Assembly: GCA_963663385.2 (NCBI GenBank)
Contig: CAXXXD010000002.1
Coordinates: forward strand, 352,001 to 416,000
Reading direction: 5' to 3'
Origin: Oceanispirochaeta sp.
GTDB lineage: Bacteria > Spirochaetota > Spirochaetia > DSM-2461
DNA length: 64,000 nucleotides
The notes under the pieces were generated by a model. The model made no database searches. It was not told the DNA's origin and worked only from the letters and a program-made list of their open reading frames with translations. Below, one piece after another: positions 33,671-36,137 of this stretch. Every line of letters begins with the position of its first letter. Position 1 is the stretch's first letter. The position numbers and the translations under genes are program-made.

Positions 33671-33702
33671 AAGGGGATCCTTCCGGGGATCCCCTTTTCT
33701 TT
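33671..33702. terminator. Rho-independent terminator between convergent dctM and peroxiredoxin
   Basis: AAGGGGATCC-ttccgg-GGATCCCCTT, followed by a T-rich tract. Confidence 0.8.
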
Positions 33703-33722: not shown

Positions 33723-34367
33723 CTACAATTCCTTATGACAGAACCACCAGTCGTAGCCTTCGTACTTTTTCAGCCTTTCGGATGCTTCCTTCTGGCTGGA
33801 GGGGGGAGGTATAATAACCCGGTCGCCGATCAGTTCGTTGTTCGGCCAGTTGGCCGGTACGGCTACTCCATTCTTGTCGGAGACGATGAGGGCTTTTACA
33901 GCTCTGACAACTTCATCCATGTTCCTCCCGATCTCCTGGGGATAGTAGAGAACCAGGCGGTTTTTCCCTTCCGGATCTATAACAAAAACCGCCCTGACCG
34001 TATTGGTTCCTTTTCCCGGATGGAGCATTCCCAGTTTCAGGGCAATTGAATCGTTGGCTGCAATAATGGGGAAGGTGATTTCCACATCCAGTTTCTCTTT
34101 AATCCACTCAACCCACTTAATATGGCTGAAAACCTGGTCGATAGACATCCCTATCAGTTTTACACCCATATCCTCCAGCTCTTTGGCTTTCTTCTGGAAA
34201 CCCACAAATTCAGTTGTGCAAACAGGTGTAAAATCTGCGGGGTGGCTGAAAAGGACAAACCATTTGCCTTTCATATCAACGGGAAGTTTCATGGGGCCGT
34301 GTGTTGTGTTCACAGTCATTTCGGGGAATGCATCTCCCAGAAGGGGCATGTTCAGTTTTTCTTCCAT
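33723..34367 (-). CDS. Peroxiredoxin (Prx6 subfamily, archaeal/Thermotoga-like)
   Basis: [14 protein letters not shown] peroxidatic motif; [10 protein letters not shown]-terminal YDWWFC. Confidence 0.95.
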
Positions 34368-34418
34368 TTTTCTTATCTCCTAAAAAATTATTTGTTTAGT
34401 CATTTCAGTACTCTTAAC

Positions 34419-34434
34419 TGCAGCATTCGTGCCA
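34419..34434 (-). promoter_or_regulatory. Sigma54 -24/-12 promoter of the peroxiredoxin gene
   Basis: Minus strand TGGCAC-GAATG-CTGCA gives exact GG-N10-GC spacing, about 50 bp upstream of the start. Confidence 0.85.
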
Positions 34435-34589
34435 AAAATAATAGACTGAGGCGCATATAGGTATGAAACAGTGCGGGAACTTGATGTAATTGCCTGATTT
34501 GTAAACAAATAAAAAAATAAGTATTTTCTTTGATGTATTGATAAAAGATATTTTATTTATAGGAAGAACCGGATTAAATCTTGTAGCAT

Positions 34590-34642
34590 ACCGATATATC
34601 GGTTATTGTATAGCGAAATATCGGTGATACTGAAATATCGGT
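34590..34642. promoter_or_regulatory. Three tandem palindromic boxes, putative bEBP enhancer sites
   Basis: ACCGATATATCGGT (34590-34603, perfect palindrome), AGCGAAATATCGGT (34612-34625) and ACTGAAATATCGGT (34629-34642). Confidence 0.75.
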
Positions 34643-34664
34643 GGATGACGGGAGGTGGTGAATA

Positions 34665-36137
34665 ATGGATATTCCCCTGCTTAAGGGTGACTCGGTGGAA
34701 GAACTGCTGGATATTATCCTTAAGGCTTTAAATGATCTGGTTGAGTATGAGCTGGCGGTTATATTGAAGCTTCAGGATAGGCAGACGCTGGCCGTTCAAA
34801 AAGCAAGCGGGCCCCTTTCGAATAAAGAGATCGAGCATTTTAAGATAGACCTTTCCTCCCGCCGGGATATTGCTGATATGATCGCCCGGAGGGAGCCCTA
34901 TCTTTTTCCTGAAGAGGAAGATCATGTAGATACCTATCAGGAGGTATTGGATATGCCCGACGGGCACTCCTGTCTGGTGGCTCCCCTTTATTTCAAAGAG
35001 ACTCCCGTGGGAATGCTGACTCTGGACCATCGGGTCTGCCGGAAATATTCTCCGGGGATTGTCCGTTTTATAGCCTCAATCTCCAAGCTGATTTCCATTA
35101 TTCTGACCCAGGGGGACACCTCCCGGTATCTGCTGGAGCAGCAGCGGCTGTTAACCGAAGAGCGTAACAGGCTTCTCCGGTTTGAAGAAGGACCGTTCCG
35201 GGATGTGATCGGAAGATCTCCCCGCTGGCAGGCGGCCATGGAATCAGTCAAGACCGTAGCGGGATCGAATCTGGCTGTTCTGATTCAGGGAGAAACCGGG
35301 ACCGGAAAGGAGGAGGCTGCCAGGTTGATTCACAGGCTCAGTTCCCGGAAGGATGGCCCTTTTATCGCTCTCAACTGTTCCGCTCTCTCTTCGGGTCTTA
35401 CGGAAAGTGAGCTTTTCGGGCATGAGAAAGGGGCTTTTACCGGGGCAACCGGTCGAAGGAAAGGGCGGTTTGAGCTGGCCCACGGGGGAACCCTTTTTCT
35501 TGATGAAATAGGCGACCTGCCGGCGGATCTGCAGCCTAAACTGCTCCGGGCCCTGCAGGAAGGGGTGTTCGAGAGGGTCGGAGGGGAAGATCCGGTCCAC
35601 TCGGATGTCCGTATTATTGCGGCTACCCATGTGGATCTGCGTAAGGCGGTGGAAAAGAGGTTATTCCGTGAGGATCTGTACTACAGGCTGAATGTATTCC
35701 CCATATTCCTCCCGCCTCTGCGGGAGCGGGGAGAGGATGTTCTGCTATTATCGGAGCATTTCATCAATAAGCTGAAAAAAGGGGAGGACTACCCGCAGCT
35801 GAAGCTGGACACGGGAGTTGCCGATGATCTTGTCTCCTACGACTGGCCGGGAAACGTTCGTCAGCTCTATAACTTTATCCGTCGGGCCGCTCTTGTTTCG
35901 GGTGGATCGGTTATTAAGCGGGAACACCTTTTTCCTGGGGATATTGTTTTTTCCGTCCCCCGGCTGGATGCAGAACCTATTGTGACTCTGGACAGGGCTG
36001 TGTACCGGCATATCAGGATGGCTCTGGAGCGCTGCCAGGGGAAAATTTACGGTACCGGGGGAGCTGCCGAGTTACTGGGACTTAAACCTTCGACCCTGCA
36101 GAGTAAAATGAAGAAGCTGGGGATTGTACGAAAATAA
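34665..36137 (+). CDS. Sigma54-dependent activator with N-terminal GAF domain (NorR/FhlA-like)
   Basis: GAF region (HSCLVAPL...GMLTLD); Walker A GETGTGKE; ESELFGHEKGAFTGA; LFLDEIG; FREDLYYRL; HTH GAAELLGLKPSTL. Confidence 0.93.
   Translation: MDIPLLKGDSVEELLDIILKALNDLVEYELAVILKLQDRQTLAVQKASGPLSNKEIEHFKIDLSSRRDIADMIARREPYLFPEEEDHVDTYQEVLDMPDGHSCLVAPLYFKETPVGMLTLDHRVCRKYSPGIVRFIASISKLISIILTQGDTSRYLLEQQRLLTEERNRLLRFEEGPFRDVIGRSPRWQAAMESVKTVAGSNLAVLIQGETGTGKEEAARLIHRLSSRKDGPFIALNCSALSSGLTESELFGHEKGAFTGATGRRKGRFELAHGGTLFLDEIGDLPADLQPKLLRALQEGVFERVGGEDPVHSDVRIIAATHVDLRKAVEKRLFREDLYYRLNVFPIFLPPLRERGEDVLLLSEHFINKLKKGEDYPQLKLDTGVADDLVSYDWPGNVRQLYNFIRRAALVSGGSVIKREHLFPGDIVFSVPRLDAEPIVTLDRAVYRHIRMALERCQGKIYGTGGAAELLGLKPSTLQSKMKKLGIVRK

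What the first reader, a model, noticed from the sequence alone, without database searches (positions are those of the whole stretch)
33723..36137. Complete sigma54 circuit: a NorR-like GAF activator apparently drives a peroxiredoxin
Seen: a -24/-12 promoter in front of prx; an AT-rich spacer with a near-IHF-type site (34531-34543); three ACCGAWATATCGGT-like boxes about 155-210 bp further upstream; and a divergent bEBP with intact GAFTGA. Knowledge: NorR uses three enhancer sites and a non-haem Fe GAF (Asp/Cys/Asp/Arg ligands) to activate NO reductases. This GAF keeps similar D, HxC and LTLD positions, with the second Asp replaced by Gln (DTYQ), and the boxes differ from NorR GT-N7-AC. Inference: a peroxide/peroxynitrite-sensing NorR variant, giving an oxidative-stress switch independent of OxyR or PerR. 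The boxes also sit just before its own gene, suggesting autorepression.
Basis: partly seen in the sequence, partly recalled or inferred. Interest (0 to 1): 0.75.

Follow-up and report, generated by a model that had tools for sequence, protein, structure and literature searches.

The report
Spirochaete branch of PexR peroxide switch
This is a real sigma-54 switch in which a metal-site activator likely turns on a peroxide-destroying enzyme; it belongs to an undescribed spirochaete branch of the recently published PexR peroxide sensor, and the same switch is predicted to control peroxide-defence genes in treponemes, including the TpF1 antigen gene.

Summary
The layout is real: peroxiredoxin gene, sigma-54 promoter, three boxes, divergent GAF-AAA+-HTH activator with intact GAFTGA, and rpoN in the genome. 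The IHF site is not above chance. The activator is not a NorR variant. It belongs to a sister clade of PexR, the H2O2-sensing activator of Myxococcus xanthus (PMC12754779). The box consensus from relatives equals PexR's CACCG-n6-CGGTG, and these three boxes are the only cluster in the genome. A tree groups the clade with PexR-type proteins (100/98) and rejects grouping with NorR (AU p=0.0007). Three of PexR's four tested ligands are kept. The fourth His sits in a shorter loop, four residues away. In 43 of 45 further loci the divergent neighbours include prx or dps. The clade spans Spirochaetota, a few Desulfuromonadales and Ignavibacteria, none named in that paper's text. In four treponeme genomes the boxes stay with prx/dps while the regulator gene is unlinked. 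In a 1.14-Mb treponeme with no Fur or LysR hit, the best sigma-54-plus-box site lies before TpF1/Dps. Peroxide sensing is inferred by homology, not tested. Earlier scan notes cover PexR relatives described with other sensors, not this clade.

The parts
33723..34367 (-). Peroxiredoxin gene, archaeal/Prx6-like type (PVCTTE; Cys50 peroxidatic by motif, Cys210 near the C-terminus); predicted target
   Evidence: NCBIfam PRK13189 over cut-off; closest solved structures are peroxiredoxins 6Q5V and 3W6G, E 2e-81 and 2.5e-79; cysteines listed
33671..33696 (.). 11-bp GC-rich hairpin between the convergent TRAP dctM gene and prx; likely terminator
   Evidence: terminator-like hit on +; use by prx is inferred
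34419..34435 (-). sigma-54 -24/-12 promoter TTGGCACGAATGCTGCA; predicted start of transcription near 34408
   Evidence: a matching site lies downstream of the boxes in 43 of 49 loci with a box, against 4.3% of random 280-mers; top box-plus-promoter composite in the genome
34531..34543 (-). IHF-like sequence (1 mismatch) in the AT-rich spacer; not shown to be functional
   Evidence: present; chance level 39%, found in 12 of 43 related spacers
34589..34604 (.). Enhancer box 1 (prx-proximal) TACCGATATATCGGTT, PexR-type CACCG-n6-CGGTG
   Evidence: 23.3 bits, best site in the genome; 2 mismatches to the PexR repeat
34611..34626 (.). Enhancer box 2 TAGCGAAATATCGGTG
   Evidence: 19.4 bits; 22-bp spacing from box 1, and 22-23 bp in all 11 relatives
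34628..34643 (.). Enhancer box 3 TACTGAAATATCGGTG
   Evidence: 19.3 bits; 17-bp spacing from box 2, and 16-18 bp in all 11 relatives
34581..34609 (+). Predicted sigma-70-type promoter of the activator gene (TTGTAG-17-TATTGT) straddling box 1; basis for likely autorepression
   Evidence: weak in this genome (below the scan threshold). Across 49 loci the mean best match is 7.98/12 on the regulator strand, against 6.27 on the other strand and 6.05 (max 6.51 of 500) with shuffled flanks
34665..36137 (+). PexR-family enhancer-binding protein: GAF (about aa 10-147; H87, D89, H101, C103, D121, C125), signalling helix, AAA+ with GAFTGA, Fis-type HTH

Best explanation
The activator is a member of a spirochaete-centred sister clade of PexR and likely binds the three CACCG-n6-CGGTG boxes and, when peroxide strips a metal from its GAF domain, would switch on the peroxiredoxin from the sigma-54 promoter. 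Shown by sequence: the genes, the promoter, the three boxes with conserved spacing, rpoN, and the grouping with PexR-type proteins. Inferred from M. xanthus PexR: the resting protein sits on the boxes, held off by its Fe2+/Zn2+-loaded GAF (predicted ligands H101, C103, D121, with H87 likely standing in for PexR H102). H2O2 or organic peroxide would release the metal, the AAA+ domain would oligomerise, and DNA looping over the AT-rich spacer would open the sigma-54 promoter. Because a predicted sigma-70 promoter of the activator gene straddles box 1 and boxes 2-3 lie in its leader, bound protein likely also damps its own gene. In this genome the regulon appears to be this one gene.
For: Box consensus from 11 relatives is CACCGATATATCGGTG, which fits PexR's repeat CACCG-n6-CGGTG (PMC12754779). 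Ligand spacing H-x-C-x17-D-x3-C and the Asp 12 residues upstream match PexR H120/C122/D140/C144/D108 in 117 of 118 clade proteins (the exception is a partial protein). Tree: clade + PexR-type proteins 100/98; holding the clade with NorR is rejected, p-AU 0.00072; same topology with 65 rows. Targets: 10 of 11 close relatives have a divergent prx (2 behind dps) and 1 has dps only. In 45 further loci with enough upstream DNA, 37 have prx, 8 dps and 6 also catalase, and 2 have none of these. PexR's reported or likely targets are of the same kind: ahpC, katB, ccp, with dps near ahpCD. In four treponeme genomes the regulator gene is unlinked and has no boxes, while prx or dps-prx keeps three boxes (3 of 4; two in the fourth) and a TTAGCA-N5-TTGCT promoter. 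So the boxes follow the target gene. The genome's flavodiiron protein (34% to NorV) is not at a box cluster.
Against: No binding, induction or metal data exist for any member of this clade. M. xanthus PexR itself was not retrieved; the stand-ins are proteins with its exact ligand spacing, some named Myxococcota/Nannocystales/Polyangiales by their sources. PexR H102, whose loss activates PexR, has no positional match: only 1 of 117 clade members has His there. The loop is 3 residues shorter and carries His at another position (115 of 117). Identity to the stand-ins (41-43%) is below the 47-98% range the paper accepted. In M. xanthus deleting pexR did not change pexR promoter activity, which weakens the autorepression step. 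The IHF site is not supported. Related genomes are not independent samples.
Confidence: 0.8

Rival explanations
1. Same wiring, but the altered metal pocket (shorter loop, His87, invariant Arg66/Asp68) tunes this clade to another oxidant, such as O2 exposure, organic peroxides, peroxynitrite or reactive sulfur, as might suit anaerobes.
For: His moved and loop shortened; an R-x-D motif in 113 of 117 members, near NorR's ligand R75 in the alignment. The PexR paper notes cross-talk between NO and H2O2 sensors and reports a response to tert-butyl hydroperoxide.
Against: Targets are the same peroxide and iron-sequestering classes as PexR's; three of four tested ligands are kept.
Confidence: 0.14
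2. A true NorR-like NO sensor that was rewired to a peroxiredoxin used as peroxynitrite reductase.
For: NorR and nifA are the two best NCBIfam models by score. D89, Y91, H101, C103 and D121 align with NorR D96, Y98, H111, C113 and D131. Three enhancer sites, as in NorR.
Against: Below the NorR cut-off. Tree test rejects the grouping. No GT-N7-AC site lies among the boxes; the one match in the spacer is at 34408, downstream of the promoter. C-terminal identity to NorR is 20%. NorR D99 is not conserved. In 43 of 45 loci the divergent neighbours include prx or dps.
Confidence: 0.04
3. The boxes are only operators for the activator's own gene, and prx is driven by another of the genome's roughly 20 sigma-54 activators.
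For: The boxes abut the activator's start and overlap its predicted promoter; the genome has 21 strong Sigma54_activat matches.
Against: In four treponemes the boxes stay with prx/dps-prx and are missing from the unlinked regulator gene.
Confidence: 0.02

Closest known systems
PexR of Myxococcus xanthus (MXAN_1565; Bastida-Martinez et al., NAR 2025, PMC12754779)
   Same: GAF-AAA+-HTH activator divergent from a peroxiredoxin; sigma-54 promoter; three CACCG-n6-CGGTG repeats; H-x-C-x17-D ligand core with D108- and C144-equivalents; similar target classes; sister clades in the tree.
   Different: H102-bearing loop is 3 residues shorter with His at D-2 instead of D-6; D111 position free; 41-43% identity to PexR-type stand-ins. 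Target is an archaeal/Prx6-like peroxiredoxin (or Dps), not AhpC/AhpD or KatB. No overlapping sigma-A promoter for the target was found here. Hosts (Spirochaetota, Desulfuromonadales, Ignavibacteria) are not among the phyla named in the paper's main text.
NorR of Escherichia coli (NO-sensing bEBP for norVW)
   Same: Same architecture, three enhancer sites, divergent gene layout, shared D96/Y98/H111/C113/D131-equivalents; 33% overall identity.
   Different: Below the NCBIfam cut-off, different box (GT-N7-AC), different HTH, D99 not kept, target is not an NO reductase, outside the PexR clade.
OxyR and PerR peroxide regulators
   Same: Control peroxiredoxin/Dps/catalase genes in response to H2O2 (introduction of PMC12754779).
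   Different: Unrelated protein families acting without an enhancer-binding ATPase. This genome has a Fur/PerR-like gene before rbr-dfx (below PerR cut-offs), and none of 4 LysR-type domains examined has a C-x8-C pair.

Membership tests
PexR | GAF-AAA+-HTH bEBP with intact Walker A/B and GAFTGA | tested here: met
PexR | Three upstream repeats CACCG-n6-CGGTG before a sigma-54 promoter of a peroxide-defence gene | tested here: met
   consensus from relatives CACCGATATATCGGTG; window boxes 2 mismatches each; repeat defined
PexR | Metal ligands H120, C122, D140 (plus pocket D108) | tested here: met
   H101, C103, D121, D89; same spacing in 117 of 118 clade proteins
PexR | Metal ligand H102 (six residues before D108) | tested here: not met
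   His at that offset in 1 of 117; a His two residues before the Asp in 115 of 117, in a loop 3 residues shorter. Functional substitution is inferred only.
PexR | Groups with PexR-type proteins to the exclusion of NorR | tested here: met
   100/98 support, AU p 0.00072; stand-ins used, M. xanthus sequence itself not retrieved
PexR | At least 47% identity to M. xanthus PexR (range in the paper's survey) | tested here: inconclusive
   41-43% to eight stand-ins; direct comparison not possible
PexR | Repression of a sigma-A promoter of the peroxiredoxin gene that overlaps the repeats | tested here: inconclusive
   no conserved sigma-70 signal on the target strand around box 1 (6.27/12, near the shuffled 6.05); the conserved signal is on the regulator strand
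PexR | Zn2+/Fe2+ binding by the GAF and H2O2-triggered release and activation | not testable with these tools
   needs protein and cultures
NorR | NCBIfam NF003451 above its cut-off | tested here: not met
   356.8 < 476 bits
NorR | Three GT-N7-AC enhancer sites | tested here: not met
   none among the boxes
NorR | Iron-centre residues R75, Y98, D99, H111, C113 (from PMC2941729 passage) and D96/D131 (recalled) | tested here: not met
   Y, H, C and two Asp kept; D99 is Q92 and variable; R75 aligns with D68, with an Arg two residues earlier
NorR | Target is an NO-detoxifying enzyme (NorV, Hmp, NorA) | tested here: not met
   prx or dps among divergent neighbours in 43 of 45 loci; own flavodiiron gene is not at a box cluster

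The most novel reading that the evidence does not exclude
This PexR sister clade, with a rebuilt His ligand loop, is the main peroxide sensor of many anaerobic spirochaetes. In oral-type treponemes it controls a dps-prx operon in trans. In the 1.14-Mb treponeme G147 (T. pallidum group by its TpF1 match), which has no Fur or LysR hit and only two sigma-54 activators, it controls the TpF1/Dps miniferritin gene from the genome's best sigma-54 promoter. That would give a target and a signal to a regulator now labelled FhlA-like, and a first peroxide-sensing circuit for that organism.
Probability: 0.55. Interest if true: 0.7.

Novelty: new variant of a known kind. Interest (0 to 1): 0.5.

Why it matters
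The mechanism class is published (PexR, December 2025), so the locus alone is not a discovery. What is added: (1) PexR-type control extends to a clade in mostly anaerobic lineages that the paper's main text does not name, with a rearranged ligand loop that tests how the pocket selects metal and oxidant; (2) a sharp box matrix that predicts regulons; (3) a directly testable answer to how treponemes lacking Fur/PerR may sense peroxide, including a predicted sigma-54/PexR promoter in front of the TpF1 (Dps) gene. These proteins are labelled only as generic sigma-54 regulators in the sources seen, or FhlA in one paper's table.

Tried and rejected
IHF site: rejected as unsupported. Q92 as a specificity change: rejected, the position varies. 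A simple His/Glu swap between the two clades (my note): dropped after alignment showed a 3-residue deletion in the loop. Retrieving M. xanthus PexR itself failed: it was not among the 120 listed of 283 hits, not in plasmids, and the paper's alignment figures are images. Supplementary Tables S5/S6 (lists of homologues) were beyond the cut of the file, so I could not check them for spirochaetes; 'spiroch' gave 0 hits in the main text and in the part of the supplement held. The first genome-contig scan with the single GAF found nothing. The metagenome scan with a PexR-type query gave one full-length match of 80 kept (L107: divergent Prx5-type peroxiredoxin with a sigma-54 site). The AlphaFold model (pLDDT 86.8) confirms a GAF fold with a long C-terminal helix; Foldseek found only generic GAF domains and gave no ligand geometry. 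The protein atlas gave no answer. My first sigma-54 pattern had the wrong spacing (searches report 0-1 hits) and was corrected. In one search the anchor box was not the target-proximal one in a few loci (L025, L028, L031, L034), which dilutes the sigma-70 signal; they were kept in the count. G147's AhpC gene has no boxes, so it is not a predicted target. No catalase or Dps was found in the window's genome with the three queries used.

Full report
OBSERVATION. The window holds a peroxiredoxin gene (33723-34367, minus) and a divergent 490-aa activator gene (34665-36137, plus) separated by 297 bp. The peroxiredoxin passes NCBIfam PRK13189 (348 bits, cut-off 211), is closest to solved peroxiredoxins 6Q5V and 3W6G and has Cys50 in PVCTTE and Cys210. 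The activator has GAF, Sigma54_activat and HTH_8 domains and an intact GAFTGA at residue 256. A -24/-12 site, TTGGCACGAATGCTGCA, lies at 34435-34419 on the prx strand, and three boxes lie 156-210 bp upstream of its GG. The genome encodes RpoN and four HU/IHF-family matches.

IS IT MORE THAN CHANCE? A search of 60 related genomes with the GAF found 11 strong orthologues. Ten have a divergent prx (two with dps in front) and one has dps only. All 11 intergenic regions carry at least three boxes with 16-18 and 22-23 bp spacing; these were found with a seeded pattern, not de novo. A matrix from their 37 boxes, built without the window, has the consensus CACCGATATATCGGTG. It ranks the window's three boxes first, second and third in 5.3 Mb, and they form the only pairs and the only triplet. 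A scan of named genomes gave 47 loci. Of the 45 with at least 500 bp upstream, 37 have prx, 8 dps and 6 also catalase within 1.5 kb on the divergent strand, and 2 have none of these. At least three boxes occur in 31 of 45 (24 of 38 after removing 7 loci that were also in the training set), against 0 of 2000 random 420-mers. A sigma-54 site follows the boxes in 43 of 49 loci with a box, against 4.3% of random stretches. The IHF-like site is not supported: 39% of spacer shuffles give one, and 12 of 43 related spacers have one. Related genomes are not independent, so these counts show conservation, not a formal probability.

WHAT IT IS. A literature search surfaced PexR of Myxococcus xanthus (PMC12754779). 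I read its abstract, parts of the methods and results, sections 29-32, the first part of the discussion and part 1 of the supplement. PexR is a GAF-AAA+-DBD activator divergent from ahpC. It binds three CACCG-n6-CGGTG repeats and activates sigma-54 promoters of ahpC and katB on H2O2. Its GAF holds Zn2+/Fe2+ through H102, H120, C122 and D140, while D108, D111 and C144 mutants had negligible effect. The window's boxes each differ from that repeat at 2 of 10 positions. The spacing H120-C122-D140-C144 and D108 maps exactly on H101-C103-D121-C125 and D89.

TWO CLADES. Homologue searches gave two groups. In the window's group, 117 of 118 proteins have H-x-C-x17-D, all 117 have the upstream Asp and the downstream Cys, 115 have His two residues before that Asp, and the D111/D99 position is free (Asp in 22, Gln in 5). 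In a second group reached through P0119, all 120 listed proteins have the motif, 117 have His six residues before the Asp (the H102 offset) and 117 keep the second Asp. Some are named Myxococcota, Nannocystales, Polyangiales or Planctomycetota by their sources, and four retrieved proteins (two of this group, two) have M. xanthus numbering exactly. I take the second group as PexR-type; M. xanthus PexR itself was not retrieved. The window protein is 41-43% identical to eight such stand-ins (GAF 26-35%, C-terminal region 43-59%) and 33%, 17% and 20% to E. coli NorR. The alignment shows the window's clade lacks three residues of the H102 loop. An IQ-TREE tree of 25 proteins joins the two groups with 100/98 support, places NorR outside, and rejects joining the window's clade with NorR (p-AU 0.00072). 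A 65-row FastTree agrees. The protein is below the NorR cut-off, and the boxes are not NorR's GT-N7-AC (passages of PMC2831303). The AlphaFold model is a GAF fold with a long C-terminal helix, as described for PexR.

HOW IT LIKELY WORKS. Shown: the parts and their conservation. Inferred from PexR: metal-loaded GAF autoinhibition, release by peroxide, AAA+ oligomerisation on three boxes and sigma-54 activation of prx, with a predicted start near 34408. H87 likely replaces H102; this is untested. On the regulator strand a sigma-70-like -35/-10 pair flanks the target-proximal box (window: TTGTAG-17-TATTGT, 34581-34609). Across 49 loci it scores 7.98/12, against 6.27 on the other strand and 6.05 with shuffled flanks, so autorepression is plausible. 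Against this, the window's own site is below the scan threshold, deleting pexR did not change its promoter in M. xanthus, and unlinked treponemal regulators have no boxes. The genome also has a Fur/PerR-like gene before rubrerythrin and desulfoferrodoxin, no C-x8-C pair in the 4 LysR domains examined, and no catalase or Dps by the queries used. The switch therefore likely runs beside a PerR-type system, with prx as its only predicted target.

DISTRIBUTION AND THE TREPONEME LEAD. The clade occurs in Spirochaetota, a few Geopsychrobacteraceae, a SAR324 bin and Ignavibacteria. It was found in 13 of 300 other Spirochaetota genomes sampled and 18 of 151 in one treponemal family. The PexR paper names Acidobacteriota, Nitrospirota, Planctomycetota and Pseudomonadota beyond Myxococcota; its Tables S5/S6 could not be seen. 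In G075, G117, G238 and G274 (genus g31; a near-identical protein is named Treponema sp.) the regulator is unlinked. There prx or dps-prx carries three boxes (two in G274) and a TTAGCA-N5-TTGCT promoter, and none of these genomes has a Fur-family hit.

G147, a 1.14-Mb treponeme, keeps the ligands, has rpoN and two activator AAA hits, and has no Fur or LysR hit. Its Dps is TpF1 by structure-database match (2FJC, E 3.8e-98). Scanning all of G147, the best sigma-54 site (24.8 bits, of 131 sites over 10 bits) lies just before that gene. One of only five boxes of 12.5 bits or more lies 90 bp upstream, flanked by two right half-sites. Its AhpC has no boxes. A peptide listed for TP0082 'FhlA' in PMC5015957 (passages) is encoded just upstream of this regulator in another frame, so this is probably that locus. 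Only one full box is present, so this prediction is weaker than the others. Searches for PexR and for this treponemal link (listings only) and passages of PMC12316311 showed no description of it. The library misses most subscription papers.

VERDICT. This is a new variant of PexR: a sister clade with a rearranged ligand loop, other targets and other hosts. Interest 0.5, carried mostly by the treponeme prediction.

Noticed in passing
L215 / G147:C1:1137005 (-): The TpF1/Dps gene of the 1.14-Mb treponeme G147 has the genome's best sigma-54 site and a PexR-type box 90 bp upstream with two half-sites; genome has no Fur or LysR hit.
   Followed up: yes
L198-L201 (G274, G238, G075, G117): Treponemal prx and dps-prx promoters use a variant -24 element, TTAGCA instead of TTGGCA, in 4 of 4 genomes examined, with PexR-type boxes; the regulator gene is elsewhere.
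   Followed up: partly
L066:1495-2991 (G000:C2:1054201-1055697): The only Fur-family hit of the genome, PerR-like but below cut-offs, precedes rubrerythrin and desulfoferrodoxin: a likely second oxidative-stress regulon.
   Followed up: partly
window:36210-36864: Directly downstream of the activator gene are a short ORF and a PIN-domain gene (PF01850): a likely VapBC-type toxin-antitoxin pair; not seen at this place in the 11 relatives' loci.
   Followed up: no
window:29048-33662: GntR/FCD regulator, metallo-beta-lactamase-fold protein and a TRAP transporter (DctP, small subunit, DctM) converge on prx; different neighbours in relatives, so probably unrelated to the switch.
   Followed up: no
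G000:C4:986124 and C2:111561: Two identical strong sigma-54 sites with identical flanks on different contigs, suggesting a duplicated element.
   Followed up: no
L052:416-1030: In one Treponema bin a ferritin-like gene of another type than Dps sits between the boxes and prx, a further likely target class.
   Followed up: no
A1 alignment, GAFTGA loop: Many clade members carry GAFTSA or GAFSGA instead of GAFTGA (45 and 13 of 117); a change at this Gly alters GAF control in NorR (PMC2941729).
   Followed up: no
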